In this document: one piece after another, positions 33,517 to 62,029 of the stretch | Numbering within the stretch: the stretch's first letter is position 1 | How the letters are laid out: every line of letters starts with the position of its first letter | Source: Mycobacteriales bacterium | GTDB lineage: Bacteria > Actinomycetota > Actinomycetes > JADGOV01 | Reading direction: 5' to 3' | Assembly (NCBI GenBank): GCA_038232055.1 | Contig: JBBSIN010000001.1 | Span: 15,633 to 79,632, forward strand | Length of the DNA: 64,000 nt | Notes under the pieces: generated by a model | The model's database searches: none | Seen by the model: the letters and a program-made list of their open reading frames with translations, nothing else | Told to the model about the DNA's origin: nothing | Translations under genes and position numbers: made by a program

Positions 33517-33633
33517 CTAGTGCAGAGGACGACATGACGTTCGTAGGGCAGGGCGGCTTGGAATCGCAAGTCTTGCCGATGCTGGACGAGTACCCCGCCG
33601 TCGTCGCAATGGAGGCACCTGCGGAGTCCGACG

Positions 33634-33951: not shown

Positions 33952-34039
33952 CAGGCAGCGGGGCGGGCGACTGCCAGGCCAGCTCGAAGCACCGTGGTGG
34001 CGTTTGCCAGGAGCGCTGACACCGGCGCGTCATCCCCCA

Positions 34040-34599: not shown

Positions 34600-34764
34600 G
34601 CGAGATACGCCCTCGTCCTGCAGGTGCAGCGACTACTCGCCGGGCGCAGCCAGCGCGGACGCAAAATCCCTGACCTGTTGGTGGCCGCCGCCGTCACTGG
34701 CCAGGCTGCACGTGGGTGGTGCCAGCGGGCACCGTCGAGTAGCGCCGCCAGCGGTCGCTGCGAA

Positions 34765-34923
34765 CTACCCCTGAGGCTCCGGCGCCGTGTCGTCGCCCTC
34801 GTTGGCGCCGACGGCCTCCTCGGCCGCCTCGCCACCGGTGCTCTCGTCGCCGAGACTGGTGTCGAAGCCGGCGCTGTCGAGGTCGCGGCCGGGGGTGTCG
34901 TTGCCCTCGGTCGGTGTGGTCAT
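34765..34923 (-). CDS. Small acidic protein (52 aa), hypothetical
   Basis: Perfect SD AAGGAGG 7 nt upstream of ATG 34923. Product MTTPTEGNDTPGRDLDSAGFDTSLGDESTGGEAAEEAVGANEGDDTAPEPQG with strongly GC-biased third positions. A + strand ORF also overlaps this region and was not chosen. Confidence 0.4.
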   Translation of the reverse strand: MTTPTEGNDTPGRDLDSAGFDTSLGDESTGGEAAEEAVGANEGDDTAPEPQG

Positions 34924-35031
34924 TGATGCCTCCTTGCTAGGAACGCTCGAGTTGGCAGGAACGCTCGCGCTTGGCAGGAACGCTCGCGGCTAGTGTTCAC
35001 CCCGTCGACAGCACACGCCGCGGGAGGGTGC

Positions 35032-46424: not shown

Positions 46425-46497
46425 GCGCTCGTAGCTCAACGGATAGAGCATCTGACTACGGATCAGAAGGTTGGGGGTTCGAGTCCCTCCGAGCGCG
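46425..46497 (+). tRNA. tRNA-Arg (anticodon ACG), no encoded CCA
   Basis: Manually folded. Acceptor GCGCTCG/CGAGCGC, anticodon loop CUACGGA, T-loop TTCGAGT. Confidence 0.85.
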
Positions 46498-46658
46498 CTG
46501 AGTAAGTCCAGGTCACAGCGTTGCAGCGTTGCGCTCCGGTCACCGAGAGCCGCTCGCTTCTACCGGATCTTCTACCGGATGACGCGAGACGAGCCGGTAT
46601 GAAGCAGTAGAGAACTAGACGGAGCCCCCGCTCCGCTGTCTCGCAGGCCCCGAGCGAA

Positions 46659-48607
46659 ATGCAAGTGCGCATACGTGTGTCGCAGCCGGCGTGTACAACC
46701 GATGGCGTGCCTTGGGAGCCCACACCCGAGCAGCAGGCCATCATCGAACACGATTTGGGTCGTCACGCGCGCGTGCTCGCCGGGCCCGGCACGGGCAAGA
46801 GCGCCACCGTCATCAGGATGATGCTCCGAGCGGCCGAGCAGCTCGGTCGCCGAGGCAAGCTCCTCACGTTCACGCGGGCGGCCACAAACGAGCTCCGCGA
46901 GAAGGTCGCAGAGCATCCAGAGCACCTGGCGACGCCGAGCACGGTGCACTCGTTCTCGATCGCAACCCTTCTCGCCAACGAAGGAACCAGCGGCCTGCCG
47001 GAGCCGATTCGGCTTGCCGACGATTGGGAGTGGTCGGAGCTGATCCGCCAGCACCTCAAGGTCTTGGTGGACTGCGACGTCCGAATGATCGACCGGGCGC
47101 GGGCAGAGATGGCGTCGAACTGGGAGTCCCTCGAGCCAGCCGAAGACCCAGACCTGCCCGAGGACGTGCGCAACCGATTCGCCGGGATCTGGGAGCACCA
47201 CCGTCGGGTCTTCGGCTACGCGTTGCTCGCCGAGCTGCCGTTTCGACTTCTTCGCGCGCTCGAAGACCATCCCGATCTCAACATCGGGGACTGGGAGTAC
47301 CTGGTCGTGGACGAGTACCAGGACCTCAACCAGTGCGATCTGTCTGTCCTGAGGCAGATCACCCACCGCGGCCGAGTCCTGGTGGCCACGGGCGACGACG
47401 ACCAGTCGATCTACTCGTTCAGGCGGGCGCACCCAATCGGCATCCGGCGCTTCGTTACCGACGACTATCCGACGGCGGCTGATCTCACGCTCACGATCAG
47501 CCAGCGATGCGCAACACAAGCGCTCGCATGGGCTCGACACGTCATCGAAGGGCTACCCGGGAGACCGCCACGGCCGGCCCTGAACCCCGCGCCGCATTGC
47601 GTGGAGGGCGTGGCCCGCTACCTTTGCTTCCCGAGCTGGCCACGGGAAGCGGACGGAGTGGCGCGCCTCGCCAAGTGGCTCATCGACAACCAGGGATCGC
47701 CCCCGAAGACATCGCGGTGATGTTCCGAAGCAACTTCAACAACGCTTGGTCGACGCCGTTGACGGAGCGACTGGAGCACTACGGCGTGCCAGTCATCAAC
47801 GCCGGAGCGGTCGCCGAGATGCTTGCCGATCCCGAGAATCGGCGATTGCTCGCCCTGGCACGACTCGTCGTTAACCGCGCGGACTCCCTGGCGTGGTGGA
47901 CACTTCTTCACCTAACACCGGGCGTCGGGCCCGTGGTCCGTGACCACTTCTACGACGGCGCCGAGCAGCACGGGCGCACCTTCGCGGGCCAACTCCTCAC
48001 CGAGCACGCGGATGACTTCCAGGGCCTCGGCGGAGCTTCGGCAACTCGGGTTCGCACCACCGTCAACGCGGCCATGGCGGTGACCGAAGCGGTCGACATC
48101 GAGGGAGCTGACCTTGGCGACGCGGGGTGGGGAGAGTGGCTGGTCGGCAATGCTGACGTGTTCGGCGGATGCAACGAGGACTTCGCCGAGCTCTTGCGGG
48201 ATCTTGATGGCTTGGTCGACAGGACGGAAGGTCTCGGGCGATTTCTCGGTCAGATCCAGCCCGTCGGCACGGACCTTCGCTCCGGTCGAGCCGCGGGCGC
48301 GGTCCGCCTCATGACTATGGCGAGCTCAAAGGGGCTCACTGTGAAGGCGGCGATCATCGTGGGCGTCGAGGAAGGCGTTGTGCCGCTCGCTGACCGCGAT
48401 CCCGGTGAAGAACGTCGCCTTCTCTACGTCGCGATGACCCGTGCCACTGACAACCTCTACGCAACTTGGTCGGGCCAGCGCACCGGCCCCACCGCTCGAA
48501 CCGGGGCTCCCCGTGTCGGCGCCGGACGCAATCGATCGCCCCTGCTTACGCATGGGCCGGTCCAGTCTGAGCACGGCAACGCCTACCTGGATGCCCTCGG
48601 CGCTTAG
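46659..48607 (+). pseudogene. UvrD/Rep-like SF1 helicase, frameshifted at a C5 run (~47700-47704)
   Basis: Frame A carries the Walker A (AGPGTGKSAT) and the LVVDEYQDLN motif. Frame B continues with GIAPEDIAVMFRSN and a UvrD_C block (...VGVEEGVVPL...LLYVAMTRA). The switch sits at GGGATCGCCCCCGAAG. Confidence 0.6.
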
Positions 48608-48650: not shown

Positions 48651-49583
48651 TCAGCAGCTGGCCGCTTGGTCCCCCGCCCGGCCTCTCAGGAGCCTCCAGA
48701 TCGGATTCGTGACGCTTCCAAAGACGTAGCGCTGCGCCTTCAGGAAGTTGAGGTTCTGGAAGCACTCGAGCGACGGCGTGCCATCGGCGTTTCGGAACCA
48801 CCCGTCCACGCCGCCGCGACTCGCCGTGGTCGTGCCGCCTCTGCCCGATTGGAGAATCAACACGTGCGAGTCATCGACAGGCACGTCGGCGAAGACGCTG
48901 ACTCGCCCGAACCGGTCGCGCTCGGCCATGGCCTTGACGGGCGTGTCGCTGGTGATCAGTTCGTCTCGGTCGAAATCCAACAGGGTCCACGCGAAGTCGT
49001 TGAGGAGTTCGGCGGTGTGTTGGCGGAGCGCGAGGACGACGCCGCCACCGACGATGCCTCTCGGCTCGCTACCGCCCAAGCGTGGTCCCCGAATGAGGTC
49101 GATCTGTTCGCGCGTGAGCGCTTGAACCTCGTCGTCCGTGAGTTCGGCGCGGACCCGGTCCAGAGTGGACGAGACGAAGCGCCGGAGGGCGTCGCCATGG
49201 CTCGGCACGCGCAACTGCTGGGCTGCCACGAACGCAGCAACGTCCTCGCGTCGCTCGTCAGTGAGCGCATCGACCCCTTGGGTGGCGAGAAGACGGAAGG
49301 CCGGCGCAGCGCAACTCTCGATGTTGGACAGAAGCCGTTCGACTGCTGTCCGGGCGAGGATCGGGTGGTCAAGGTCGTAGAGCCCCTCGGCGTAGGCGAC
49401 GTCCTTCGGCCTTGCCGTGACGTACTCGCCGGTCGTCTTGTCGAACACCCCGATCTGGCGCTTCGAGCCGAACTGGCGCAGGTACCACTGTGGAACGAAG
49501 TGATGCTTGCGCGGCTCCTGAATGACCGGGGCTTGAGGACGCTCTCCCGGTTGTGAGCGCCGTGCGGAGCGATCAGTGCTCAC
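48651..49583 (-). CDS. DUF4238-like protein (paralogue 1)
   Basis: Conserved N-terminal HHFVPQWYLRQF motif. The GTG at 49583 is the only in-frame start before the motif and overlaps the upstream stop (GTGA). The Arg-rich 5' extension in the track ORF is rejected. Confidence 0.5.
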   Translation of the reverse strand: MSTDRSARRSQPGERPQAPVIQEPRKHHFVPQWYLRQFGSKRQIGVFDKTTGEYVTARPKDVAYAEGLYDLDHPILARTAVERLLSNIESCAAPAFRLLATQGVDALTDERREDVAAFVAAQQLRVPSHGDALRRFVSSTLDRVRAELTDDEVQALTREQIDLIRGPRLGGSEPRGIVGGGVVLALRQHTAELLNDFAWTLLDFDRDELITSDTPVKAMAERDRFGRVSVFADVPVDDSHVLILQSGRGGTTTASRGGVDGWFRNADGTPSLECFQNLNFLKAQRYVFGSVTNPIWRLLRGRAGDQAASC

Positions 49584-50563
49584 GCGGGCTGACGACCTTG
49601 CTGCCGAACGACCCGCTTCTGCACACGAATCTCGTCGCCCTCGGCCAGGGCACCGAGCGTCTCGACGCCCCACCTCGGCCGCTCGAGGAGGTCTCCGATC
49701 TCGATCGGCGGGTCGTCGGGGTGCTGGAAGATCCATCGGTGAGCGCCGCTTGCGACGAAGCGATTGATGATCTCGGCCCGCTTGGGCTTGGCATCTACGA
49801 CCCGTTCGTCTCCGGAGAGGAGCAGGGCGATCGCGCGTTGCCTGTCGATCGGCATGTAGATGGCATCTGCGCTCGCAATGCCGAGAGGGTGCGTCTCGAG
49901 GTCTCGATCTGGGCGGACCCATAGCGCGACGGGCTGGTCGCTGACGAGGAGGGCAGGCTCGTCGAATCGCAGTAGGCGGACCCGGCGACGGAAGTAGAGG
50001 TCGGGATGGATGCCGTTGAGTGCAAGCAGACCCATCTGCTGCACCGCCGCCGACTGCGAGGGCACGACCTTCCAGTCCGAGGTCAGGAGTTGCTCACGCC
50101 ATGCTGCGACCGCCGCGTCATCGAATGCCCGTCCGTCCTTCTTGAGTTGAGGCCGCAGGCGTTCCGTCGTCAGCCGGGGCCGTAGCTCCTCCTTCGCCAT
50201 CAGGGTGGCGAGCTCGGAGATCTCCTCGCGAAACGACCATCCACGAACTGCCTGAAAGGCAACGAAGAGCATCAGGTCGAACCGATCCTGGTCGGTCAGG
50301 TTGAGTTCGTCCCGTGCGAACCTATCGAACAACCGCGAGGCTCGACCCTCGAAGTCCGCCAGCGAGATCTCGATCTGATTGCTGGGAGCAAGGTGGCTGA
50401 AGGCGGGATCAATGTCGACGTCGTAGAAGCCGGCCTCTCGGCACGCGCGCGTGACCGTCATCGGGATGCGAACTCCGCCGGCGCGCGGAGTGGCCAGCAG
50501 GCGCTCGCGCTCGCCGGCGAACCGACGGAGCAGCATCTGCGGGACGATGTGATCGCGGGCCAT
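49580..50563 (-). CDS. DUF4238-like protein (paralogue 2)
   Basis: N-terminus MARDHIVPQMLLRRFA. 327 aa. Translationally coupled to paralogue 1. Confidence 0.55.
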   Translation of the reverse strand: MARDHIVPQMLLRRFAGERERLLATPRAGGVRIPMTVTRACREAGFYDVDIDPAFSHLAPSNQIEISLADFEGRASRLFDRFARDELNLTDQDRFDLMLFVAFQAVRGWSFREEISELATLMAKEELRPRLTTERLRPQLKKDGRAFDDAAVAAWREQLLTSDWKVVPSQSAAVQQMGLLALNGIHPDLYFRRRVRLLRFDEPALLVSDQPVALWVRPDRDLETHPLGIASADAIYMPIDRQRAIALLLSGDERVVDAKPKRAEIINRFVASGAHRWIFQHPDDPPIEIGDLLERPRWGVETLGALAEGDEIRVQKRVVRQQGRQPA

Positions 50564-50636
50564 CCGTCGTCAGTGTGCCGCGGAGTTCACCGCGCTCACC
50601 CGATGATTTCGTGTGTTCCCGGAGCCTCGGCGTTGC

Positions 50637-51845
50637 TCAGGCCGGACCCGGAGCTGAAGCGCCTCGACCGGGGTCGTCGTTAGGTGCCGCCATCAGCCTC
50701 GAGAACACCGCTGCGGCTTCGGCCTGCATCCCGGGGAGCACCCAGCCGTAGACGTCGAGGGTGAAGCTCGCCGTCGCGTGGCCGAGCCGCTCACTCACGA
50801 CCTTGATCGGCACGCCGGCCTTGAGCAGCAGCGTCGCGTGGGTGTGGCGGACGTCGTGGAAGCGGACCCTGGGCAGCCCGCTGCGGGCGACGATGCGCTC
50901 GAACGTGGAGCTGAGTAGTTCGGGGTGCGTGAGCGTGCCATCAGCGCGGGCGAAGACGAGGCCGTGGTCGTCGTAGCCGGCGCCGAGCAGAAGGCGCTCT
51001 TCGGCCTGCTTGCGACGCCACCCCTGCAGCGCGCGCACAACGTCGTCGTTGACGTCGATGGTGCGCCTCCCGTGCGAGGTCTTCACGTCCGTGAGCCGAA
51101 CGTCGTAGTTGACCACCACAGCGTTCTGCCGAACGTGGATGAGTTTGGCGTCGAGGTCGACGTCGGCCCAGCGCAGCCCGGCCACCTCGCCGCGTCGCAT
51201 GCCGGTGTGCGCGGCGAGCACGAACGCCGGCGCCAGGCGCACGCCGTCGAGGGAGGCCAGGAAGGTCTGGAGCTGCGCGCTCGTCCACACATGCATCTCG
51301 CCTTCGCGCTTCGTGCTGGTGCTCCGCTTCGGCGGGTCGGCGAGGGACGCCGGGTTCCGGTTGAGCGCTCCCTTGCGCACCGCGTCACCGAGCGCCTTGC
51401 GCAGGATGCGGTGCACATAGCGAACGCTGCCTGAGCTCAGCCCCGGTCCGTCGCCGCTCTTGTTGCGGCGCCCGGACTCGAGCAGCCGGCCGTAGAGCGC
51501 GTCGAGATCCTCCGGGGCGAGTCGGCCGAGCGGCACCTTGCCGAGCGTCGGCAGGACGTGGAGCCGGATGTTGCTCTCGTAAGAGTGGAACGTCGTCGCC
51601 TTGAGCTGGCTGCGCTGCGCGGGTAACCACCGCTCGGTGAGGTACTCACCGAGGGTGACCTTGTCGGGAGCGCGGTACTCGCCGTCGTTGTGGCGCTTGA
51701 CCAGGTCGGTGACGAGCTTGTCGGCGTCGGCCTTGCGGGTCCCCGCCGGGTACCAGCGGCGACGCTCCTTGCCGGTGGCTGGGTCGACGCCTTCGTAGAT
51801 GACGGCGTAGTAGCGGTTGCCCTTCTTCGCTGTGTAGCCGCGCAC
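50637..51845 (-). CDS. int: Tyrosine site-specific integrase (phage-integrase family)
   Basis: AAGGAGG 6 nt upstream of GTG 51845. N-terminal SAM-like/AP2 domain (GNRYYAVIYEG..) and a catalytic C-terminus with R...HDVRHTHATLLL...LGHATASFTLDVYGWV (R-H-R-Y). Confidence 0.85.
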   Translation of the reverse strand: MRGYTAKKGNRYYAVIYEGVDPATGKERRRWYPAGTRKADADKLVTDLVKRHNDGEYRAPDKVTLGEYLTERWLPAQRSQLKATTFHSYESNIRLHVLPTLGKVPLGRLAPEDLDALYGRLLESGRRNKSGDGPGLSSGSVRYVHRILRKALGDAVRKGALNRNPASLADPPKRSTSTKREGEMHVWTSAQLQTFLASLDGVRLAPAFVLAAHTGMRRGEVAGLRWADVDLDAKLIHVRQNAVVVNYDVRLTDVKTSHGRRTIDVNDDVVRALQGWRRKQAEERLLLGAGYDDHGLVFARADGTLTHPELLSSTFERIVARSGLPRVRFHDVRHTHATLLLKAGVPIKVVSERLGHATASFTLDVYGWVLPGMQAEAAAVFSRLMAAPNDDPGRGASAPGPA

Positions 51846-51862
51846 CTGCGGCCTCCTTAGCG

Positions 51863-52612
51863 TCAGCGCTTGTCGCGCGTCTGCTTGCGGGGAGCGTCCG
51901 CTCCCGATCCGGCTCGTGCCGGCTCGTCCGCCGTGCCGGCTCGTGCCGCCTTGTCCGCCGACCGCTTGCCTGGCGGCTTTGCGAAGTCGCTGTCGTTGGT
52001 GTGCTCGGCCAGGAACCCGCGGATGCCGACCTGGCGGAGGTGGTCGACCCAGCGACCGAGTTCGTCGACGGCGGTGTCGAGGCTGTCGGCGTGCTGGTCG
52101 ACCAGCGCCAGCAGGAGCTCCTTGCGGCGGTCCCTGTAGTTCCACCGCTTCACGTGTGAGGCGATGCCGGTGACCTTCTCCGCGGCCTCGTCGGCGTCGG
52201 AGGGATCGACGATGCCGTGCTCCCGCAGCCGCTCGTAGACCGGCGGGAGCATCTCGGGGGAGCCCATCAGCCACATGTAGAGCTCGTTGGACTGGCTGTT
52301 GGTGCCGCGCAGGAACCGCCGCTCGCCCGGTGGCGGGAGCAAGAACCAGATGATCGGCAGGTCGAAGACCATGGCGAACACGAGCAGCTCGTGGGCGTCG
52401 AACTCCCGCCGACGGTCGCCGTCCCAAGCCCGCTCAATCGATGAGACGCCGGCCTGCGTCATGCGCTGGCCCATGTACGGCTCGAGCTCGGCCGCGAACT
52501 GGTCCTGGGTCCATCCCCGCAGCTCGCGGGCGGCACGCACGTTGTAGGCGACGATCTGGTTGAGGTCGACCTCGGGACGCGGGGGCGGCGTGTTCTTGGA
52601 CCGTCGTGCCAC
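51863..52612 (-). CDS. XRE-family HTH transcriptional regulator with an uncharacterised C-terminal domain
   Basis: HTH QIVAYNVRAARELRGWTQDQFAAEL...VSSIERA. Start set at the in-frame GTG. Confidence 0.6.
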   Translation of the reverse strand: MARRSKNTPPPRPEVDLNQIVAYNVRAARELRGWTQDQFAAELEPYMGQRMTQAGVSSIERAWDGDRRREFDAHELLVFAMVFDLPIIWFLLPPPGERRFLRGTNSQSNELYMWLMGSPEMLPPVYERLREHGIVDPSDADEAAEKVTGIASHVKRWNYRDRRKELLLALVDQHADSLDTAVDELGRWVDHLRQVGIRGFLAEHTNDSDFAKPPGKRSADKAARAGTADEPARAGSGADAPRKQTRDKR

Positions 52613-53220: not shown

Positions 53221-56170
53221 GTGCTGCGCGTGACCACCATCCTCGCCCACAGCGCGCCGGCATCGGCGCGCTACTACACCCGCTACCTGACCGGCGACGG
53301 GCCCGACGCCGAAGGCCACTGGCTCGGCCGGCGAGCCACCACCTTGGGCCTCTCCGGACGAGTCGAGACCGACGACCTCGAAGCCATCCTCTCCGGGCAC
53401 GACCCGACCACCGGACGACAGCTCGGGTACCCGCTCGTCGACCGCGTCGACAGCAAGGGCCGCATCATCCGTGCCGTCGCCGGCTTCGACGCCACGTTCT
53501 CGGCGCCCAAGTCGCTGTCGGTGTGGTGGGGCCTCACCGGGACCCCGGGCTGCTCGAGGCGCACAACCTCGCCGTCGGAGCCGTCCTCGACCACATCGAG
53601 CAGTACGGCGCCACAACCCGCATCCGCGTGGATGACGCCCGCCAGCACCCGGATGTCGACGGGCTCATCATGGCCGCCTTCCCGCAGGCCACGTCCCGGG
53701 AGGACGATCCCCAGCTGCACACCCACGTGGTGATCTCCGCCAAGGTGCTCGCACCCGACGGGCGATGGCTGGCGCTCGACGGCCGCTACCTCAAGCGCAA
53801 GCAGCGCGCCCTCGGCGGCCTCTACCAGTCGGTGCTGCGCGTCGAGCTGACCAGCCGTTACGGCGTCGCCTGGGGACCAATCGAAAAGGGGCAGGCCGAG
53901 ATTGCCGGGATGCCGAAGGAGTTGCTCGACGCGTTCTCCAAGCGAACCGCCCAGGTCGACGCAGCCCTCGCCGACAAGATCACCGAGTTCCGCGAGCGTG
54001 AGGGACGCGACCCGACCCGCTGGGAACGAGCAGCGCTCACCCGCGAGGCGTCCGAGGACACTCGCGCCAAGAAGACGCACGCGTCACCCGGCGACCTCGG
54101 GAGCCACTGGCGCGACCAGGCCGAGGCGCTCGGCTGGAGCCCGGCCCGGCTCCTGGAGCGCATGTGGGACTCGGCGCGCACGCACCCGACGCCGGAGCCG
54201 CCAACCGTGGTCGACGTCATCGAGCAGCTCTCCGCCGCCGGCTCGGCTTGGAACCGTGCCGACGTCCTCCAGGCCGTCTGCGACCTGACGCCGCCAGTCG
54301 CAGGAGTGCACGGGCAGCGGTGGGCAGCAGCGGTCGAGCGCGCCTGTGACCGTGTGATCGAGACCTGCACCACCCTCGACCCGCCGTCGGAACGCTCACC
54401 GCGGCGAGCTTCGGACGGCCGGTCCATCTGGATCGCCCCCATCGAACCGCACCTGACCACTGAGGCTGTCCTCGCCCAGGAGGAACGGATCCTGCTCTTC
54501 GCCATCGACGCCCACGACACGCCCGCTCGCCGTCGCCCACTCTGGACAGGAGCGGTCTCGACGTCCTCCAGGCCGACGCCTCAGCCGCAGTCGCCGGCGA
54601 TGACCCGCTCGTCCTCGTCGTCGGTCCCGCCGGCACCGGCAAGACAACCACGCTCCGGCGGGCCGCCGCCGCCCTCGGCGCCCAAGGCTGCCATGTCTTC
54701 GCCGTCGCACCCACCGCCAAGGCGGCCAAGGTCCTCCGGGACGAGACCGGGATCCAGTCCGCCACGGTCGCCAAGCTGCTCCACGAGTGGCGCAACCGGC
54801 AGCCCCACGACGAGTACCGGCTCCCGCCGGGCACCACGCTGATCGTCGACGAGGCAGGGATGCTGGGGACCGGAAACCTCGACGCCCTCACACAGCTGGC
54901 CGCGTCCCAGAGGTGGCGATTGGTGCTCGTCGGCGACCCCCGCCAACTCCAAGCCGTCGGACGAGGCGGCATGTTCGACGAGCTGTGCCGCACCGCGCGC
55001 GTCCACGAGCTCGCAACGATCCACCGCTTCCGCCACCGCTGGGAGCAAGCAGCCTCGCTACGGCTCCGCGCCGGCAGCTCCGCGGCCCTGGACGCCTACT
55101 TCCGGCACGGGCGAGTCGGCACCGGCACGTTCGAGGCGCTCAGCGCCGACATCGCCTGCCAGTGGATGGACCACCGCGCCGCCGGTCGATCCGTCGCCGT
55201 CGTCGCCGAGACCAACGAACACGTCGACGCGCTCAACCACGCCATCCAGGAACTCCGGCGGGAGCACGGCCAGCTCGGCGAGCGCGCAGCCCGCATCGCC
55301 GGCGGCGAGTCAGCCGCAGTCGGAGACGTCGTCGTGACCCGCCGCAACAACCGCGAGCTGCGGACGAGCAGCGGCGAACCGGTCCGCAACCGCGACCGCT
55401 GGACCGTCACCGCCATCGGACGCGACGGAAGCCTCACTGCGTCCCACGAACACGGACACGGGCAGCTCGCCCTCCCCACCGACTATGCGCGCGAGCACGT
55501 TCGGCTCGGCTACGCCGCCACCGCCCACGGCCACCAAGGCGACACCGTCGACGTCAGCTTGACCGTCGTCACCGCCGCCACCACCCATCGCAGCCTCTAC
55601 GTCGGCGCCACCCGAGGCCGCGATCTCAACCGTCTCCTCGTCGTGACGGAGGATCCCAACCTGGCACGCGACGTCCTCGAAGAGGTACTGACGAACGACC
55701 GGGCCGACCTTCCCGCCGTCGCCCAGCGCCGTCACCTCGCGAGCCAGGAGCCGCGGTACGGCCGTGAGACCGAAGACCGAGTGGCTGCCGCTCGTCGGGC
55801 TCTTGCCGAGGTGGAAGAACGGACGGAGCCACACCTCCGCCCTTTTCGGGAGGCGGAGCATGCCGTCGAGGAGGCACAGCGCGACGTATGGGCCGCTCGC
55901 CGGGCTGCAGACGACGCGCCTGTCCTGCGGCGGCGAGCTGCCAACCGCGACCTCACAGCGGCCGAGTCACGACTCGGTGGCGCACGGGAGCAGCTCGACC
56001 ACGCCCTCGGACGCGCAGCACCACTCCTGGCCGAGCAGCACGCCGTCGAGGACGAACTGCGAGACGCAGAACGCGATCTGTCGTCGGCGCGGCTGCGTGA
56101 GCGGATGGACGCGCTCACCCGTCCGGCACCGGAGCGTTCCCTCGATCGAGGAATGGAGATCGAGCGATGA
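53221..56170 (+). pseudogene. MobF (TrwC/TraA-type) relaxase fused to a RecD-like helicase, with at least two frameshifts
   Basis: Relaxase motifs (YYTRYL, SAPKSLSVWW, LHTHVVISAKV) sit in frames A and B. P-loop helicase motifs (VVGPAGTGKTT, LIVDEAGML, ...VGDPRQLQAV) sit in frame C. Frame changes occur near 53535-53560 (G/C runs) and near 54538-54545 (CACTCTGG, a CT dinucleotide). Confidence 0.65.
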
Positions 56171-56222: not shown

Positions 56223-59200
56223 CTACCGCGCTGACGCGGTGAAGTCCTCCAGCGTGGCGAAGATGGTTTCGAGGTCGGCCTCGACGAAGATGGCTTCAGG
56301 TCCCTGAGGTGCAACCCCGTCGTACGGCGTTTCGTACACGCGACCCGGTTCGACCATTCCACGCTGAGTGAGCTCGTTGATGATCAGGTTCACAAACTCG
56401 ATCTGATTCTTGCTGTAGCGCTTGTCGTCGAGGAAGTCCGCAAACGCCGCCTTAGCTGCCGCCCGGTCCAGCCCGACGAGTGACCTTGCGAAGAGACCGA
56501 AGCTCCCCGTCCGCTTCGCCGCCTCGGCGAACGTTTCGTCGTCTCCGATCCCGGCCGCAATCAGGATCCGCTGCAGGTCCGCGATGTCCTGCGCCGTCAG
56601 CGGCGCGCCGGAGCGGACCTTCGCTACCGCTGCTTCGGCAAGGTGCTCCTTGAGAAAATGCTCCGCCTTCTTGCGGAACTGCAGGAACTCGGTACTGCCG
56701 GCCGCCGAGCCGGCACCTGGCAGCACGATCTCGCCGGCTTCGCCGATCTCGTCGACGAAGTCGGAGTAGATGACCTTCCGCTTCAAGCGCTCGATCAACG
56801 GCACGAGCAGCCGCAGCCTCTTGCGCACCTCTTCGAGCATCGGGTAGCTGACGTCCGTCCACCACTCGTCGGTCTGCACGTCCTGAATGAGCTCGAGGTG
56901 CGCTGCGATAGCAGGGATGACCTGCTGGTCTTCGAGCGCGCTTGCGATCTGCATGACCTTGCGTCGCTCGCCCTCGAACGGCCGGCCCTGCAGGAGCGCG
57001 AGCTGTGCGCTCAGGAGGAGGACGTCGAACCGCTTGGCTTCCTCATGCTCAGGGTCGAGCTGCGCCGGCAGCCTTGCGACCCGATCCGCCAGCGCAGCAA
57101 GGTCTCCGACCGACAGGCTCTCCCACGGCTCCTCTTCGCGGAAGCGCTCGACGAGCTGGAGGTGTGGCCGAACGAGGAAGTTGTCCGGGTTCATCGACGC
57201 GATGGCGTCGCGCAACGTTGCCGCGACGGTCGCGCGTTCGTCACCGTGCGAGTGGATCTCATCGAAGGTCTGGATGAGTTCGAGCCGTGACTTGAAGATC
57301 TGCTCGCTCAAGGGCACCGAGTCAGACGGCTCTGCCGGCGGGAGCTCTTGGCTGAAGTACTCGAGGTTCTGACAGAAGTCGAAGACCTTGAACTCGGTCT
57401 TGTCGTCGCCGGGCCCGAAGAGGTCCGGTCGCAGCCGCGTGCCTCGGCCGATCATCTGCCAGAACTTAGTCTTCGAGCGGAGGAGCTTGAAGAACACGAG
57501 GTTGACGATCTCGGGCACGTCGATTCCGGTGTCGAGCATGTCGACCGAGATGGCGATGTGCGCCGCCTTCTCCGGCGTCGAGAAGTCGTCGATCAGGCTC
57601 TGTGCGTACTTAACGCTGTGGGTGACGACGCGGGCGAAGTTGCCGTTGTCGAGATGCGGGTAGTTGGCGACGAACCGCTCGTAGATGTAGTCAGCGTGCC
57701 GCTGGTTCTTGGCGAAGATGATCGTCTTGCCGAGCCGATCCCCACCGGCGACGCGGATGCCCTGGGTCATGAGGTGCTCGAGCACCTTGTCGACCGTGTC
57801 CTCGTTGAAGAGGAACTTGTTCAGGGCGGCAGGGTCCACCTCGTCGGGAGGATCGAGCGGGTTGCCCTCCTCGTCCTCGCCCCACTCGAACTCGTCCCAG
57901 TCGTCCTTCTCGTCGTCCGACAGGTTCTTGTACTTGATGCCCTCGCGGATGAACTTGACCGGCACCGACACACCTTTCGGCGGGACGAGGTAGCCGTCGC
58001 CGATGGCCTCCTCCAATGAGTACGCATCCGTGGGAACACCTGTCTCGAGATCGAAGAGGTCGTAGGTGTTCTTGTCGACCTCGTCCTTGGGAGTCGCCGT
58101 CAGCCCGACGAGCAGCGAGTCGAAGTACTCGAAGATGCCGCGGTACTTCCGGTACACCGAGCGGTGCGCCTCGTCGATCACGACGAGGTCGAAGTGGCCC
58201 ACCCCGAATCGACGCGTTCCGTCGTTGCGGTACTCGTCGATCTTGCCGACCATCGTCTGATAGGTGGACACGTAGACCCTGCCGTCCTCGCCGCCCTCCG
58301 ATACGAGGTTCACGGGCGCCGACTGCGGCAGGTGCTCCTTGAAGGCGTTCACGGCCTGCTTGACGAGCGCAGTCCGATCGGCGAGGAACAGGACGCGCTT
58401 CGCCACGTTGGCGCGCATCAACAGGTCAGTGAGAGCGATGACGGTCCGGGTCTTGCCAGCGCCGGTTGCCATGACGAGGAGCGCCTTTCGCTGCTTGTCG
58501 ACCTCGAATCGCTCGGAGATGGCTCGGATGGCTCGCTCCTGGTAGAAGCGCTCAACGATCGCGCCGTTCGTGTCGAGCGTCACGAGCGAACGCCGCGTCG
58601 TCCGCCGCTGCATCGCGAGCTGCAGCTCGTCCTTTGTCAGGAACCCCTGGACCGACCGCGGCGGGTACTGCGTGTCGTCCCACAGCCAGTGCTCGTAGCC
58701 GTTCGAGTAGAAGATCACCGGCCGCTGGCCGGTCGCCGCTTCGAGACAGTCCGCGTAGAGCTTCGCCTGCTGCTGGCCCGTCTGGGGCGACACCAGCGTC
58801 TTCTTCGCTTCGACGATCGCGTGTGGCAGCCCGTCGTCGCCCCACAGCACATAGTCGACGTAGCCGACGCCGGAGCCGGAGGGCATGCCGTGCACCTCGA
58901 ACTCCCGGTCGCGGCCCTCTGTCAACGTCCAACCCGCCTCGGCGAGGAGCGCGTCGATCTTGAACCGACGAGTCTCGAGTTCGGACCAGTCGTACGACTC
59001 GATGGGGATCGCTTCGGCGGCCTTCTTTGCTGCCGCGACCTCAGCGATCAACGCGGCGCGCTCAGCCTCGAGCTGCTCGACCGTCTTGGCCAGCTCCGCG
59101 ACACGCGCCCGAGCGAGCGCAGTGTCCTCGGCCTCTCGGGCAAGACGCTCTTCAAGTTCGAGCCGCTCGGTGAGCGATGCCGGCTCGTGCCGCTCGAACG

Positions 59201-59630
59201 ACGCCAGCTTCTTCGGATCGAACTTGAGGCTGAGGTCGGGTTTCGATGAGCGCCCGTAGGTGTAGGCGAGCCAGAAGCAGAACTGGAACAGCGCCGAGAT
59301 GACCTCGACTGCCTCGAGCTGTGTTGGTGGCTTCGCCTCGTGGACCGCGCGATTGCCGGCGCGCTGGATCTTCTTGGCGACGTTGTAGACGAGGCCGCTC
59401 GCCAGCGCCTTGAAAGCCGGCTCGTTCAGGTAAGCGTTGAGCTGGTCCTCGTACGGCTGCGACAGCGACCGGTCGTAGCGGTAGACCCACTTGACGCCTG
59501 ACTCAAGCGCCTTGCGAGCGTAAATCATCGCCGGTCCCGGATCGGAGAGCGCGTGGCTCTCGGCCCACGATGCCGTGGCGAACTCGTCGCGGAACTCCGC
59601 TTCGAGGAAGAAGAACTGTGACTCGCTCAC
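56223..59630 (-). CDS. hsdR: Type I restriction enzyme R subunit
   Basis: 1135 aa. Nuclease region, DEAD-box SF2 motors (MATGAGKT, VVIDEAHRS) and a C-terminal helical domain. Stop overlaps the hsdS start. Confidence 0.85.
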   Translation of the reverse strand: MSESQFFFLEAEFRDEFATASWAESHALSDPGPAMIYARKALESGVKWVYRYDRSLSQPYEDQLNAYLNEPAFKALASGLVYNVAKKIQRAGNRAVHEAKPPTQLEAVEVISALFQFCFWLAYTYGRSSKPDLSLKFDPKKLASFERHEPASLTERLELEERLAREAEDTALARARVAELAKTVEQLEAERAALIAEVAAAKKAAEAIPIESYDWSELETRRFKIDALLAEAGWTLTEGRDREFEVHGMPSGSGVGYVDYVLWGDDGLPHAIVEAKKTLVSPQTGQQQAKLYADCLEAATGQRPVIFYSNGYEHWLWDDTQYPPRSVQGFLTKDELQLAMQRRTTRRSLVTLDTNGAIVERFYQERAIRAISERFEVDKQRKALLVMATGAGKTRTVIALTDLLMRANVAKRVLFLADRTALVKQAVNAFKEHLPQSAPVNLVSEGGEDGRVYVSTYQTMVGKIDEYRNDGTRRFGVGHFDLVVIDEAHRSVYRKYRGIFEYFDSLLVGLTATPKDEVDKNTYDLFDLETGVPTDAYSLEEAIGDGYLVPPKGVSVPVKFIREGIKYKNLSDDEKDDWDEFEWGEDEEGNPLDPPDEVDPAALNKFLFNEDTVDKVLEHLMTQGIRVAGGDRLGKTIIFAKNQRHADYIYERFVANYPHLDNGNFARVVTHSVKYAQSLIDDFSTPEKAAHIAISVDMLDTGIDVPEIVNLVFFKLLRSKTKFWQMIGRGTRLRPDLFGPGDDKTEFKVFDFCQNLEYFSQELPPAEPSDSVPLSEQIFKSRLELIQTFDEIHSHGDERATVAATLRDAIASMNPDNFLVRPHLQLVERFREEEPWESLSVGDLAALADRVARLPAQLDPEHEEAKRFDVLLLSAQLALLQGRPFEGERRKVMQIASALEDQQVIPAIAAHLELIQDVQTDEWWTDVSYPMLEEVRKRLRLLVPLIERLKRKVIYSDFVDEIGEAGEIVLPGAGSAAGSTEFLQFRKKAEHFLKEHLAEAAVAKVRSGAPLTAQDIADLQRILIAAGIGDDETFAEAAKRTGSFGLFARSLVGLDRAAAKAAFADFLDDKRYSKNQIEFVNLIINELTQRGMVEPGRVYETPYDGVAPQGPEAIFVEADLETIFATLEDFTASAR

Positions 59631-60226
59631 AGCTCGCCTCTGAAAGCGCGCTGCTGAAGCGCTCCCAGCAGCGTGTTGAGCGTCTCGAGACTACGGCGAC
59701 GCTCGGTTCGAAGATCGACGACCGAGTCGAGAACGGCGGCGATTCTGTGTTGCTCAGTGAGGGCCGGCGCCGGTATCGGAAACTGGCGCAACTGCGAGAG
59801 GTTGATCCGAGGGCGCGTCTGTCCGTGCGCCAATGACGCTGCGTGCGATTGCGCTCGGCCCGAGTTCAAGTAGTGGACGAGGTAGCGCGCTGAGGCTTGT
59901 TCGGGATTACATCGCAGCTGGATGTAGTCCGCCTTGTTCAGCGCGAGCGGTATGAAGTCGGGCAGAACAGCCGCCCGCAAGATCGGATCGCCGAGCGTCG
60001 CGATGAGGACATCTCCAGGACGGCACTCATGTTTGCTGAGCTTCGCGAAGTGATCCGTCGAGATGAACGCGCGATCGCGATCGTCAAACTCTCCGACCGC
60101 GATGTTCTGCAGGCGAACCACCCGAACTCCGCCCTCGACGTAGTGCTCGCTCTTGAGATTCGAACCAAACGGCCCATCCTGCAGCTTCAATGCCAGATCG
60201 CCGAGGGGCACCATGGGAACGCTCAC
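59627..60226 (-). CDS. hsdS: Type I RM specificity subunit, half-size (single target-recognition domain)
   Basis: 199 aa with one TRD plus one conserved coiled-coil region (...LTEQHRIAAVLDSVDL...). 4-nt overlaps with both hsdM (upstream) and hsdR (downstream). Confidence 0.7.
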   Translation of the reverse strand: MSVPMVPLGDLALKLQDGPFGSNLKSEHYVEGGVRVVRLQNIAVGEFDDRDRAFISTDHFAKLSKHECRPGDVLIATLGDPILRAAVLPDFIPLALNKADYIQLRCNPEQASARYLVHYLNSGRAQSHAASLAHGQTRPRINLSQLRQFPIPAPALTEQHRIAAVLDSVVDLRTERRRSLETLNTLLGALQQRAFRGEL

Positions 60227-61767
60227 TTGAGCATGGCCTTCAGCTCGTCCAAGCCCTTCTGGATTCGCTCCTCGATCGCTGTCAGCTCATCGATGAGTTC
60301 TAGAGGCTGCGGGAACTCGACCTCGCGGTACGGCGTCTCCTGGTAGCGGTTGATCGAGAGGTCGTAGCCAGCTGATGCCACTTCGGACTTGGGAACACAG
60401 AACGATTGATCGTCGCGTCTCCGGCCGCGTTCGTTCCCATCTCGCTTCCGCCACCGTGCGAGCACGTCGGGAAGGTTGTTCTTCGCACGCTCGTCCTCAG
60501 TGAGGACTGCGGTGGCGCCGAGCTTGGACTCTGGGAGGAGCGGGGTTCGCTTGTCGTCGAGGCTTCGGCCATCGGCGTGCAGGTCGTAGAACCAGATGTG
60601 GTCGGTGCCTCCCGAGTTCGTCTTGGTGAACAGCAGGATCGCCGTCGAGACGCCCGCGTACGGCTTGAACACGCCAGACGGCAGCGAGACGATCCCATCG
60701 AGCTTCTGATCCTCGACGAGCATCCGCCGGAGTGCCTTGTGAGCGTTCGTAGATCCGAAGAGAACGCCATCCGGGACGATGACAGCCGCGCGCCCGCCGG
60801 GCTTGAGAAGTCGTAGAAACAGGGCGAGAAAGAGCAGCTCTGTCTTCTTCGTCTTCACGACTTGGAGCAGATCCTTCGCGGTCGACTCATAGTCGAGGCT
60901 GCCGGCGAAAGGCGGGTTGGCCAGGACGAGGCTGTAGGCCTCGATGTCGTTCGCATGGTCCTGGGCGAGGCTGTCGCGGTAGGCGATCGCGGGGTTCTCG
61001 ATGCCATGCAGCTGCATGTTCATCGACCCGATGCGGAGCATCGTGTTGTCGAAGTCATAGCCATGGAACATCGACTCGTGGAAGTGCTGGGCATGAGTCG
61101 CGTCGGCCAGCACCGTCGGGTGGTGGCGGCGGAGGTACTCGCCAGCACCGACCAGGAAGCCAGCGGTACCGACGGCTGGATCGCAGATGGTGTCCTTGGG
61201 AGTCGGCGCCATCATCTCGACCATCAGCTCGATGATGTGGCGCGGCGTTCGGAACTGGCCGTTCTGCCCTGCCGTGGCGATCTTGGCGAGCATGTACTCG
61301 TAGACGTCGCCCTTGGTGTCGCGGTCCTCCATCGGGATGGCGTCGAGACCATCGACCGCCTTCTGGAGGAGTCCGGGTGTCGGGATGGTGAACCGCGCAC
61401 CACGCATGTGCTTCCCATGCGTCGTCGTCGCCGTGCGCTCCTGGAGGAACGGGAAGACGTAGTTCTCGACGACGTCGTACATCTCGTTGGCCGGCATGTT
61501 CTTCAGCCGATCCCAGCGCAGGTCCGCGTACGGTCGACCCGTTGTCTGCCCCTCGGGCGTGAACGTGCCATCCGGGAAGATCGGGCGCTCGATGGCAGCG
61601 CCCGTGCGGTTCGCCTTCCGTTCGGCTCGGGTCTCTGCCTCGTCGAGGCCCTTGATGAACAGCAGGAGCGTCAGCTGTTCCATGACTTCGAGCGGATTAG
61701 AGATTCCGCCAGACCAGAAGTCGCTCCAGACCGCGTCGATCCTCGTCTTGAGCTCGCCGGTAATCAT
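60223..61767 (-). CDS. hsdM: Type I RM N6-adenine DNA methyltransferase subunit
   Basis: N-terminal HsdM_N, an N6_Mtase domain with LANPPFAGS (NPPF motif) and a SAM-binding (F/Y)xDPAxGTAGFL. ATG 61767. Confidence 0.85.
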   Translation of the reverse strand: MITGELKTRIDAVWSDFWSGGISNPLEVMEQLTLLLFIKGLDEAETRAERKANRTGAAIERPIFPDGTFTPEGQTTGRPYADLRWDRLKNMPANEMYDVVENYVFPFLQERTATTTHGKHMRGARFTIPTPGLLQKAVDGLDAIPMEDRDTKGDVYEYMLAKIATAGQNGQFRTPRHIIELMVEMMAPTPKDTICDPAVGTAGFLVGAGEYLRRHHPTVLADATHAQHFHESMFHGYDFDNTMLRIGSMNMQLHGIENPAIAYRDSLAQDHANDIEAYSLVLANPPFAGSLDYESTAKDLLQVVKTKKTELLFLALFLRLLKPGGRAAVIVPDGVLFGSTNAHKALRRMLVEDQKLDGIVSLPSGVFKPYAGVSTAILLFTKTNSGGTDHIWFYDLHADGRSLDDKRTPLLPESKLGATAVLTEDERAKNNLPDVLARWRKRDGNERGRRRDDQSFCVPKSEVASAGYDLSINRYQETPYREVEFPQPLELIDELTAIEERIQKGLDELKAMLK

Positions 61768-61777
61768 CGAACGTCGC

Positions 61778-62029
61778 CTACCGCGTACGCCCACCGGCCG
61801 CGCGCCACCGCTCCATCTCGGCTCGGCAGTTCGAACCCGCGGGACCGAAGCCATGCTCGACGAGAAACTCCCCGACGCTGCCGTACCGGAGGTTGATTAC
61901 AGCAGCCTCGGCGAACTTGTCGTGACCCGGGACGAAGAAGTTTCCAGTTGTCGTCTCAGCGCCACACCCGCACCAGCAGTCACCCGTCGGCAGCAGCCGC
62001 CCGGCGCGGTCCCTGATCGTCTCAGCCAT
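61778..62029 (-). CDS. Small Cys-rich protein (83 aa), hypothetical
   Basis: GGAGG 6 nt upstream of ATG 62029. MAETIRDRAGRLLPTGDCWCGCGAE...GHDKF...C... Sits 10 nt upstream of hsdM. Confidence 0.4.
   Translation of the reverse strand: MAETIRDRAGRLLPTGDCWCGCGAETTTGNFFVPGHDKFAEAAVINLRYGSVGEFLVEHGFGPAGSNCRAEMERWRAAGGRTR

What the first reader, a model, noticed from the sequence alone, without database searches (positions are those of the whole stretch)
48651..50563. Tandem, translationally coupled pair of DUF4238-like genes on a defence island
Both proteins start with the H-(H/I)-V-P-Q-x-x-L-R-x-F signature that I associate with DUF4238 (PF14022). To my recollection, a single-gene DUF4238 anti-phage system (Rst_DUF4238) was reported from phage-satellite hotspot screens. 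Here two divergent paralogues are fused into one operon by a GTGA overlap, next to a UvrD-like helicase, an integrase, a type I RM system and a RES-Xre pair. A two-component DUF4238 arrangement in an actinobacterium would be a variant that I do not recall being described.
Basis: partly seen in the sequence, partly recalled or inferred. Interest (0 to 1): 0.7.

Follow-up and report, generated by a model that had tools for sequence, protein, structure and literature searches.

The report
Mobile two-gene DUF4238 paralogue cassette
Two distantly related genes of a poorly understood family (DUF4238, one distant member of which is known to block a phage) sit stop-to-start in one small operon that moves as a unit between mobile islands of high-GC soil bacteria; it is a real but narrowly distributed variant of a known kind, and nothing yet shows the two proteins need each other.

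Summary
Gene A (49580-50563, minus strand, 327 aa) and gene B (48651-49583, minus strand, 310 aa) overlap by GTGA. Both match Pfam PF14022 (DUF4238) far above threshold, and they are 27% identical to each other.

The A-then-B cassette, with an ATGA or GTGA junction, recurs in four unrelated genomic contexts. Only the two genes and at most about 100 nt upstream are shared. Synonymous divergence is congruent between A and B, and dN/dS is 0.13-0.28, so the cassette is real, mobile and under selection.

The pairing is young and narrow. It is seen only where A is at least 84% identical to the window's copy. The next relatives of A (79, 71, 65, 43, 37%) and of B (56%) are solo genes. Almost all other DUF4238 genes surveyed are solo too: 9 genomes, 18 metagenome loci and about 400 plasmids.

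The two subfamilies were joined by recombination, not by local duplication. Both keep every family-invariant residue. The fold has no solved homologue, and the mechanism is unknown in the literature. PADLOC's DUF4238 model does not recognise either protein.

The context is a lower-GC island next to tRNA-Arg. It carries an integrase, a broken relaxase, a type I restriction-modification (RM) system and a frameshifted UvrD-like gene. RES is not confirmed.

Verdict: a probable defence cargo cassette and a new variant of a known kind, of modest interest.

The parts
49580..50563 (-). Gene A: DUF4238 protein, 327 aa, ATG start. It belongs to the 'A' subfamily, which has a C-terminal beta-hairpin extension.
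   Evidence: ORF and translation. PF14022 E=6.3e-33, full-length match. AF2 model pLDDT 88, pTM 0.84. dN/dS 0.13-0.20 against orthologues. Keeps all family-invariant residues: H5, V7, P8, L12, Y47, E65, E72, Q104, R107, D209, P211.
48651..49583 (-). Gene B: DUF4238 protein, 310 aa, GTG start. It belongs to the 'B' subfamily. It has a roughly 25-aa disordered N-terminal extension that solo B-like relatives lack. It has also lost the C-terminal 'HP' motif (reads S290-V291).
   Evidence: Translation. PF14022 E=2.2e-28. AF2 model pLDDT 79, pTM 0.76, residues 1-27 below 50. dN/dS 0.22-0.28. Invariant residues H28, V30, P31, L35, Y69, E82, E89, Q122, R125, D213, P215 retained. HP motif loss.
49580..49583 (-). 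4-nt stop/start overlap (GTGA) joining A and B.
   Evidence: Sequence. The same junction is GTGA in L010 and L027 and ATGA in L013, so the start codon changes while the overlap is kept.
50564..50611 (-). Short upstream leader of A that travels with the cassette. This is the limit of nucleotide homology to other loci. It presumably carries the ribosome-binding site and possibly a promoter.
   Evidence: blastn homology ends at window 50586 (L013), 50611 (L027) and 50660 (L010) upstream, and at 48674/48694 downstream. The consensus scan found no sigma-70-like promoter, but that scan is not tuned for actinobacteria.
46425..46498 (+). Context: tRNA-Arg (ACG), at the boundary between core genes (about 72% GC) and the lower-GC island (about 66% GC). 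Probable integration site.
   Evidence: ARAGORN. GC profile. No second copy of the tRNA 3' end lies inside the window.
46659..48607 (+). Context: UvrD/PcrA-like (GajB-like) helicase gene, convergent to the pair and split into two ORFs (46659-47720 and 47507-48607) by a frameshift near 47.6 kb.
   Evidence: Pfam UvrD-helicase and UvrD_C hits on separate ORFs. NCBIfam positions 4-291 and 346-613 of Rep/PcrA. GC3 switches frame at about 47600-47640. PADLOC gives generic GajB hits. It is not an orthologue of the L010 helicase, and no OLD/GajA partner was found.
50637..52427 (-). Context: tyrosine integrase directly upstream of A on the same strand (73-nt gap). The listed ORF is the longest one; the true start is probably further downstream.
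   Evidence: Phage_integrase E=5.9e-24 and SAM-like N-terminal domain. XerC/D-like hits.
53221..56170 (+). Context: TrwC-type relaxase/helicase broken into three ORFs (53221-53733, 53523-54842, 54860-56170).
   Evidence: TrwC profile positions 14-94, then 95-285, then AAA_30 positions 99-189, each on a separate ORF.
56223..61854 (-). Context: type I restriction-modification operon. hsdR is at 56223-59630, a half-size hsdS at 59630-60226, and hsdM at 60223-61854.
   Evidence: Pfam. PADLOC REase_I 1.1e-170, MTase_I 5.6e-184, Specificity_I 2.8e-42.

Best explanation
Shown. Genes A and B form a compact two-gene cassette of about 1.95 kb. It encodes two anciently diverged DUF4238 proteins transcribed together and joined by a stop/start overlap. 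The cassette is cargo of a lower-GC integrative element inserted next to tRNA-Arg, lying between the tRNA and the element's integrase. It has moved as a unit between at least four unrelated contexts, and both genes are under purifying selection.

Inferred. The cassette arose when a B-type gene was recombined downstream of an A-type gene. It was not a local duplication. B's start was recruited upstream to A's stop codon, which added a disordered N-terminal extension of about 25 aa.

Most likely function (inferred from one distant validated family member and from neighbourhoods rich in defence genes and mobile-element genes): anti-phage or anti-mobile-element defence. I favour the reading that each protein is a complete DUF4238 unit, because both keep the whole invariant set (His, Tyr, two Glu, Gln, Arg, Asp-x-Pro). 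That set looks like an enzymatic or ligand-binding centre. Co-expressing the two would then widen or layer the range of invaders recognised, much as Thoeris loci carry several ThsB paralogues (from my own knowledge). The biochemical activity is unknown, and the fold has no solved relative.
For: Family membership.

Cassette conserved with an ATGA/GTGA junction in the window/L001, L010, L013 and L027, each with different neighbours: integrase and UvrD; OLD plus UvrD (Gabija-like); PIN, AAA_16 and DACNG/H; genes with no Pfam hit.

Nucleotide homology is confined to the two genes plus at most 50-100 nt upstream.

dS of A and B between the same loci is congruent (0.61/0.48, 0.58/0.58, 0.75/0.74). 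dN/dS is 0.13-0.20 for A and 0.22-0.28 for B.

Solo outgroups. A-like: L011 79%, L004 71%, L002 65%, L005 43%, L007 37%. B-like: L015 56%.

All invariant residues are kept in both proteins, checked across 39 distinct and then 197 family members.

Defence link: Rousset 2022 single DUF4238 protein active against T7. The only viral fold match is a protein of Stenotrophomonas phage Smp131, which I recall as P2-like; that classification was not checked here (Foldseek E=8.6e-11).

Neighbourhoods of relatives carry RES, DndB and HNH (L005), NACHT and DUF5677 (L007), PycTM (L011), Gabija (L010), and Gabija plus type I RM plus a relaxase (L015).

Foreign origin: GC 65.5% and GC3 0.79-0.80, against 71% and 0.86-0.93 for flanking core genes.
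Against: No experiment bears on these two proteins. The validated member is only distantly related: PADLOC DUF4238-Pers finds nothing for A and E=0.031 for B, and tblastn finds no phage match.

The pair is confined to a narrow clade. B is truncated in L010, so B may be dispensable.

B has lost the HP motif that 84% of the family keep and evolves faster than A. That fits a changed or partner-dependent role better than a fully autonomous one.

The surrounding island is decaying (frameshifted helicase and relaxase), so its cargo may not be in use.

Confidence: 0.45

Rival explanations
1. Obligate two-component system. A and B form a hetero-oligomer in which B is a derived, partner-dependent subunit (sensor or regulator) and A is the canonical active unit. 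Neither works alone.
For: The stop/start overlap is conserved even though the start codon changes between GTG and ATG. B's start appears to have been recruited to A's stop, creating a poorly conserved, disordered N-terminal extension of 25-26 aa that solo B-like proteins lack. Paired B proteins alone have lost the C-terminal HP motif (SV/NV/HV), while solo B-like relatives keep GHPxNP. In my locus set, HP-less proteins were seen only where a second DUF4238 gene lies nearby: the window clade, Rhodococcus plasmid L047 and L040. dS of the two genes is congruent.
Against: A's closest relatives (79%) and B's (56%) are solo, so each lineage was recently autonomous. A is intact next to a truncated B in L010. 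B keeps every invariant residue, so it is not an obvious dead paralogue. No A-B fusion protein appears among the best 150 representatives. Family-wide, the His of the HP motif is replaced in about 16% of members whose context is unknown, so the motif correlation is weak.
Confidence: 0.2
2. Not a defence system. The DUF4238 proteins serve the mobile element itself (maintenance, exclusion of competing elements, regulation) or have some unrelated role, and the resemblance to Rst_DUF4238 does not transfer the function.
For: The family is large: 15,112 clusters at E<=1e-3. Only one distant member has been tested. Defence-specific models do not recognise A or B. The genes sit on integrative or conjugative elements and plasmids rather than in phages. 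In the window they are directly downstream of the integrase on the same strand.
Against: Neighbourhoods of relatives repeatedly contain bona fide defence genes: Gabija, type I RM, RES, DndB/HNH, NACHT, PycTM. The cassette lands next to different genes in each locus, which is typical of defence cargo and not of a core function of one element. A TIR-containing E. coli defence system also uses a DUF4238 domain (PMC11350192).
Confidence: 0.25
3. Decaying remnant. The pair is a chance juxtaposition on a degenerating island, with B on its way to becoming a pseudogene.
For: Two neighbouring island genes are frameshifted: UvrD-like and TrwC. B is truncated in L010. B has the higher dN/dS and has lost a conserved motif.
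Against: B is intact in the window, L013, L027, P0030 and P0032. dN/dS of 0.22-0.28 shows purifying selection. The junction is conserved in four contexts. An independent assembly gives identical A and B. The truncated copies P0044 and P0048 look frameshifted; P0044 lies on a contig where most genes are fragmented, so these are probably assembly errors.
Confidence: 0.1

Closest known systems
Rst_DUF4238 (DefenseFinder) / DUF4238 (PADLOC): single-gene anti-phage system from the E. coli P2-prophage hotspot (Rousset et al. 2022, PMC9122126)
   Same: Same Pfam family, PF14022. Same overall fold class: the only viral structural match is a protein of Stenotrophomonas phage Smp131, Foldseek E=8.6e-11; I recall Smp131 as P2-like, which was not checked here. 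It is carried as cargo of a mobile element. The mechanism is unknown in both cases.
   Different: Here there are two genes of two subfamilies in one operon rather than one gene. The host is a high-GC actinobacterium, not an enterobacterium. The carrier is a tRNA-Arg integrative/mobilisable island, not a P2 prophage. Sequence similarity is too low for the PADLOC model or for tblastn against phages. No activity data exist.
Solo actinobacterial and metagenomic DUF4238 genes of the same A and B subfamilies (L002, L004, L005, L007, L011, L015)
   Same: They are 37-79% (A) or 56-59% (B) identical to the window's proteins. They have the same invariant residues and the same kind of neighbourhood, rich in defence and mobile-element genes.
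   Different: They stand alone. B-like solo proteins start directly at M-x-Q-E-P-R-K-H-H, without the N-terminal extension, and keep the GHPxNP motif.
Other multi-copy DUF4238 loci: L014 (a B-like gene followed by a third type, 90-nt gap), Rhodococcus erythropolis plasmid pMGMM8_1 (two copies separated by one gene), L040 (divergent pair)
   Same: More than one DUF4238 paralogue is clustered in an actinobacterial or soil-metagenome locus.
   Different: The partners, gene order, spacing and orientation all differ, and none has the overlapping A-B junction. These are independent events, so there is no single conserved two-gene DUF4238 architecture across the family.
TIR-domain defence system of E. 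coli that includes a DUF4238 domain (Nat Commun 2024, PMC11350192)
   Same: It shows that a DUF4238 domain can work within a defence system that has more than one module.
   Different: The partner there is a TIR NADase. No TIR domain is present in A or B or in the two flanking genes.
Thoeris loci with several ThsB paralogues (functional analogy only; from my own knowledge, not tested here)
   Same: Several divergent paralogues of one defence protein sit in a single locus, which is thought to broaden recognition.
   Different: The protein family is unrelated. In Thoeris a separate effector (ThsA) is shared, and no such third gene travels with the A-B cassette.

Membership tests
Pfam PF14022 (DUF4238) | Score above the curated gathering threshold (27 bits) for the family HMM | tested here: met
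   A scores 114.8 bits (E=6.3e-33, profile 1-281/281). B scores 99.9 bits (E=2.2e-28, profile 1-211/281).
Pfam PF14022 (DUF4238) | Family-invariant residues: N-terminal H-x-V-P-x-x-x-L-[RK]-x-F, then Tyr, Glu, Glu, Gln, Arg and D-x-P | tested here: met
   H/V/P/L/Y/E are 100% conserved, the second E and D 97%, the P of D-x-P 95%, R 90% and Q 87% across 39 distinct proteins. All are present in A (H5, V7, P8, L12, Y47, E65, E72, Q104, R107, D209, P211) and in B (H28, V30, P31, L35, Y69, E82, E89, Q122, R125, D213, P215). H, E, E and D are kept in 197 proteins wherever the column is aligned.
Pfam PF14022 (DUF4238) | C-terminal [FWY]-x-H-P motif (His in about 84% of members, Pro in about 95%) | tested here: inconclusive
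   A has F279-Q-H281-P282. B has G-S290-V291, so the motif is lost. The motif is not universal in the family.
Rst_DUF4238 / PADLOC 'DUF4238-Pers' defence system | Match to the defence-system HMM | tested here: not met
   PADLOC PDLC03000 gives no hit for A and E=0.031 (11.8 bits) for B. As a control, an E. coli IncI-plasmid DUF4238 protein scored only E=0.0055, so the model is narrow. The DefenseFinder HMM was not available.
Rst_DUF4238 / PADLOC 'DUF4238-Pers' defence system | Single-gene architecture | tested here: not met
   Two DUF4238 genes lie in an overlapping operon.
Rst_DUF4238 / PADLOC 'DUF4238-Pers' defence system | Carried in the variable hotspot of a P2-like prophage | tested here: not met
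   The neighbours are tRNA-Arg, an integrase, a TrwC relaxase and a type I RM system. tblastn finds no match to 50,697 phage records. IMG/VR scans gave one distant hit.
Rst_DUF4238 / PADLOC 'DUF4238-Pers' defence system | Demonstrated protection against phage (T7 in the original work) | not testable with these tools
   This needs cloning and plaque assays. One search shows it only for the E. coli protein.
Gabija (considered because of the adjacent UvrD/GajB-like gene and the Gabija-DUF4238 adjacency in L010 and L015) | GajA (OLD-family ATPase-TOPRIM nuclease) next to an intact GajB helicase | tested here: not met
   The window's helicase is frameshifted. tblastn with the L010 OLD and UvrD proteins finds no orthologue in the window. 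The tRNA gene lies directly upstream of the helicase.
TIR-DUF4238 system (PMC11350192) | TIR-domain partner or fusion | tested here: not met
   A and B carry only PF14022. The flanking genes are an integrase and a UvrD-like helicase.
   The pair is seen only where A is at least 84% identical. The nearest outgroups of A (79-37%) and of B (56%) are solo.
   No multimer prediction or experiment was available. No A-B fusion protein appears among the top 150 representatives.

The most novel reading that the evidence does not exclude
The A-B cassette is a true heteromeric DUF4238 system caught early in its evolution. A recently captured B-type paralogue has been locked to A by translational coupling, through a recruited upstream start and a new N-terminal linker. 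B has begun to specialise (loss of the HP motif, faster evolution) into a partner-dependent sensor or regulator of A. If so, comparing it with the still-solo sister genes (79% for A, 56% for B) would offer a natural experiment on how single-gene defence proteins become multi-subunit systems. It would also give a handle on the unknown DUF4238 mechanism and on a fold without solved relatives.
Probability: 0.2. Interest if true: 0.55.

Novelty: new variant of a known kind. Interest (0 to 1): 0.35.

Why it matters
DUF4238 is a listed anti-phage family whose mechanism is unknown, and, as shown here, its fold has no solved relative. A naturally coupled pair of two subfamilies, with close solo relatives of each, is a convenient test set: A alone, B alone, A+B, and the solo sisters. 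These would show whether DUF4238 proteins act alone or as oligomers, and which residues matter. The finding also shows that current defence-finder models miss the actinobacterial branches of the family. Beyond that it is a modest result. The arrangement is confined to a narrow clade, is one of several independent ways in which DUF4238 genes cluster, and no function has been shown.

Tried and rejected

2. PHROGs and NCBIfam gave no meaningful hits for A or B.

3. Idea that the neighbouring UvrD-like gene is a functional partner, as in L010 where Gabija precedes the pair. Rejected: the window's helicase is not orthologous to L010's, it is convergent and frameshifted, and it is not part of the shared cassette.

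4. Idea that A and B are a local tandem duplication. Rejected: they are 27% identical, while the solo outgroups are 56-79% identical to one or the other.

5. Rosetta-stone fusion test. No double-domain DUF4238 protein appears among the best 150 of 15,112 clusters. One 781-aa protein has an unknown N-terminal 470 aa with no Pfam hit.

6. attL/attR search. No repeat of the tRNA-Arg 3' end lies within the window, so the far end of the island is not defined.

7. HP-motif correlation with multi-copy loci. It looked significant in my locus set (roughly p=0.003). I downgraded it after finding that the His is replaced in about 16% of the wider family, whose contexts are unknown.

8. Truncated B copies P0044 and P0048 as evidence of decay. 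Discounted, because P0044 lies on an error-ridden contig where most genes are fragmented.

9. Organism identification.

10. The promoter/terminator consensus scan found nothing around the operon. It is not informative for actinobacteria.
Full report
**1. Observation**

The region holds two co-directional ORFs on the minus strand.
- Gene A is 49580-50563 (ATG start, 327 aa, beginning MARDHIVPQMLLRRF).
- Gene B is 48651-49583 (GTG start, 310 aa, containing ...RKHHFVPQWYLRQF).
- On the coding strand the junction reads GCGTGAGC, so B's GTG overlaps A's TGA by 4 nt.
- No other in-frame start lies between that GTG and B's invariant His28. The longer 423-aa ORF would overlap A by more than 300 nt.
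- A public contig with identical sequence was called the same way by an independent gene caller.
- Both proteins match Pfam PF14022/DUF4238 far above the 27-bit threshold. A scores 114.8 bits over the full profile, and B scores 99.9 bits over profile positions 1-211.
- A and B are 27% identical.
- GC3 of 0.79-0.80 supports the annotated strand and frame. GC of 65.5%, against about 71% for the flanking core genes, points to foreign origin.

The only slip is that B's motif reads H-H-F-V-P-Q, not H-H-V-P-Q.

**2. Context in the window**

- Core metabolic genes run up to 46348.
- A tRNA-Arg(ACG) gene lies at 46425-46498. From there GC falls from about 0.73 to about 0.66.
- After the tRNA comes a UvrD/PcrA-like helicase gene on the plus strand. 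It is split into two ORFs by a frameshift near 47.6 kb.
- Then come B and A, on the minus strand and convergent to the helicase.
- A tyrosine integrase lies 73 nt upstream of A on the same strand.
- Further on are a weak HTH ORF, a TrwC relaxase broken into three ORFs, and a complete type I RM operon with a half-size HsdS.
- The RES-Xre pair is not confirmed. The 223-aa ORF has no Pfam or PADLOC hit, and the 137-aa ORF upstream has only a sub-threshold Xre_MbcA_ParS_C match, E=0.015.
- No repeat of the tRNA 3' end lies in the window, so the far end of the island is undefined.

The setting is a partly decayed integrative/mobilisable element with defence cargo.

**3. Is the pair conserved?**

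Protein searches found 28 relatives of A and 21 of B. Their contigs showed the following.

Loci with the A-B pair:
- The A-then-B pair with a 4-nt overlap occurs in the window/L001, in L013 (A 85%, B 77% identical), in L027 (84%, 78%) and in L010 (A 87%; B truncated after residue 150).
- The junction is GTGA three times and ATGA once.
- The neighbours differ completely: integrase and UvrD; OLD-ATPase plus UvrD (Gabija-like); PIN, AAA_16 and DACNG/H; genes with no Pfam hit.
- blastn shows that only the two genes and at most 50-100 nt upstream are shared.
- Between the same pairs of loci, dS is similar for A and B (0.61/0.48, 0.58/0.58, 0.75/0.74). dN/dS is 0.13-0.20 for A and 0.22-0.28 for B.

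The cassette is therefore inherited and moved as a unit, under purifying selection.

Solo relatives:
- A-like genes at 79% (L011), 71% (L004), 65% (L002), 43% (L005) and 37% (L007-9) identity have no second DUF4238 gene.
- The same holds for the B-like gene at 56% (L015-17).

Wider surveys:
- Nine actinobacterial genome loci were all solo.
- Eighteen metagenome loci were solo, except for one divergent pair, L040.
- About 360-430 plasmid records had essentially one copy each.

Other clustered arrangements exist but differ:
- L014 has a B-like gene followed 90 nt later by a third type of DUF4238 gene.
- A Rhodococcus plasmid has two copies separated by one gene.

The A-B cassette is thus a young, narrow-clade arrangement. 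It was made by bringing two old subfamilies together, and it is one of several independent clustering events.

**4. The proteins**

- Across 39 distinct DUF4238 proteins, and then 197, the N-terminal H-x-V-P...L-[RK]-x-F motif, a Tyr, two Glu, Gln, Arg and D-x-P are invariant or nearly so. A and B keep them all. Neither is an obvious dead paralogue.
- The AF2 models are confident: A has pLDDT 88 and pTM 0.84; B has pLDDT 79 and pTM 0.76.
- The two models share a topology: an N-terminal helix and hairpin, a long helical bundle, then a mixed beta/alpha C-terminal part.
- A has an extra C-terminal beta-hairpin (residues 297-321). B has a disordered N-terminal 27 residues. That extension is absent from solo B-like proteins, which start at M-x-Q-E-P-R-K-H-H. 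It is poorly conserved among paired B proteins, as expected if the start was moved upstream to reach A's stop codon.
- Paired B proteins have also lost the C-terminal [FWY]-x-H-P motif (SV/NV/HV in place of HP), which solo B-like proteins keep. In my loci, HP-less proteins occurred only where a second DUF4238 gene lay nearby. However, family-wide the His is replaced in about 16% of members whose context is unknown, so this is only a hint.

**5. Mechanism**

- A profile search of PDB sequences found nothing.
- BFVD gave a single true match, an uncharacterised protein of Stenotrophomonas phage Smp131 (E=8.6e-11). I recall Smp131 as a P2-like phage, which would fit the P2-hotspot origin of the validated system; that classification was not checked here.
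- The literature I could search lists the DUF4238 mechanism as unknown.
- One E. coli TIR system includes a DUF4238 domain.
- The family has 15,112 clusters at E<=1e-3. No double-domain fusion appears among the best 150.

The defence role is therefore an inference. It rests on one distant tested member and on neighbourhoods rich in defence and mobile-element genes: RES, DndB and HNH; NACHT; PycTM; Gabija; type I RM.

**6. Comparison with known systems**

A and B are members of Pfam DUF4238. They are not members of the narrowly defined Rst_DUF4238/PADLOC family.
- The PADLOC model gives no hit for A and E=0.031 for B. It is narrow even for an E. coli plasmid homologue.
- The architecture is two genes, not one.
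- The carrier is not a P2-like prophage.
- There is no match to any phage record, and IMG/VR gave almost nothing.

**7. Verdict**

The cassette is real, conserved and mobile. Its function is probably defence. The claim that it is a two-component system is not supported beyond co-inheritance and the overlapping junction.

I favour two complete DUF4238 units co-expressed from one transcript (confidence 0.45). The rivals are an emerging obligate heteromer (0.2), a non-defence role (0.25) and decay (0.1).

Novelty: a new variant of a known kind. Interest: modest (0.35).

Noticed in passing
window 46659-48607 (+): A UvrD/PcrA-like (GajB-like) helicase gene is split into two overlapping ORFs. The coding-frame signal (GC3) switches at about 47600-47640. 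This is either a true pseudogene or an assembly indel. No OLD/GajA partner lies next to it.
   Followed up: partly
window 53221-56170 (+): A TrwC-type relaxase/helicase is broken into three consecutive ORFs (TrwC profile 14-94, then 95-285, then AAA_30 99-189). This suggests a decaying mobilisable or conjugative element, or several indel errors in this stretch.
   Followed up: partly
window 56223-61854 (-): A complete type I RM operon. The HsdS is half-size (198 aa, one target-recognition domain). The HsdR carries an N-terminal DUF4145 domain, and the first 192 residues of HsdR also match PADLOC candidate PDC-M16A.
   Followed up: partly
The 223-aa protein has no Pfam or PADLOC hit, although by eye it has a GNRY...LYAS...E pattern reminiscent of RES. 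The 137-aa protein has only a sub-threshold Xre_MbcA_ParS_C match (E=0.015).
   Followed up: partly
window B residues 288-293; L013, L027, L047:3521-4615, L040: The C-terminal H-P motif is kept by all roughly 22 solo DUF4238 lineages I saw. It is lost in paired B proteins, in one of the two Rhodococcus plasmid copies, and in the copy of the divergent pair L040 that aligns there (the second L040 copy's alignment stops before the motif). Family-wide, the His is replaced in about 16% of members, so the link to multi-copy loci needs a proper census.
   Followed up: partly
L010:4298-7866 and L015:1-2395: Gabija-like gene pairs (OLD-family AAA_15/TOPRIM plus UvrD helicase) lie directly upstream of the DUF4238 genes in L010, and in the same island in L015. 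L015 also carries a type I RM system and an intact 1075-aa TrwC relaxase, so it looks like an intact counterpart of the window's element.
   Followed up: no
L014:408-2972 and L007:9598-11250: DUF5677 proteins recur next to or near DUF4238 genes in two unrelated loci. In L014 the order is DUF5677, then a B-like DUF4238, then a third-type DUF4238. This may be another recurring association.
   Followed up: no
L005:6870-8972 (also L006): An A-like solo DUF4238 gene starts 16 nt after a RES-domain gene, which itself follows a 177-aa ORF. DndB and HNH_5 genes lie nearby. This may be a three-gene operon.
   Followed up: no
P0149 (781 aa): This is the only long protein among the top 150 family representatives. 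The DUF4238 domain occupies residues 474-769, behind a 470-aa N-terminal region with no Pfam match. It may be an informative fusion partner.
   Followed up: partly
window 33376-33469 and about 26000-35000: A second tRNA gene, tRNA-Ser(GCT), has lower-GC stretches (0.68-0.69) around 26-28 kb and 32-35 kb. This may be another insertion site.
   Followed up: no
L011:2248-2703: A PycTM-domain protein (the Pycsar effector type) lies about 1 kb downstream of the solo A-like gene that is the closest outgroup (79%) of the paired clade.
   Followed up: no
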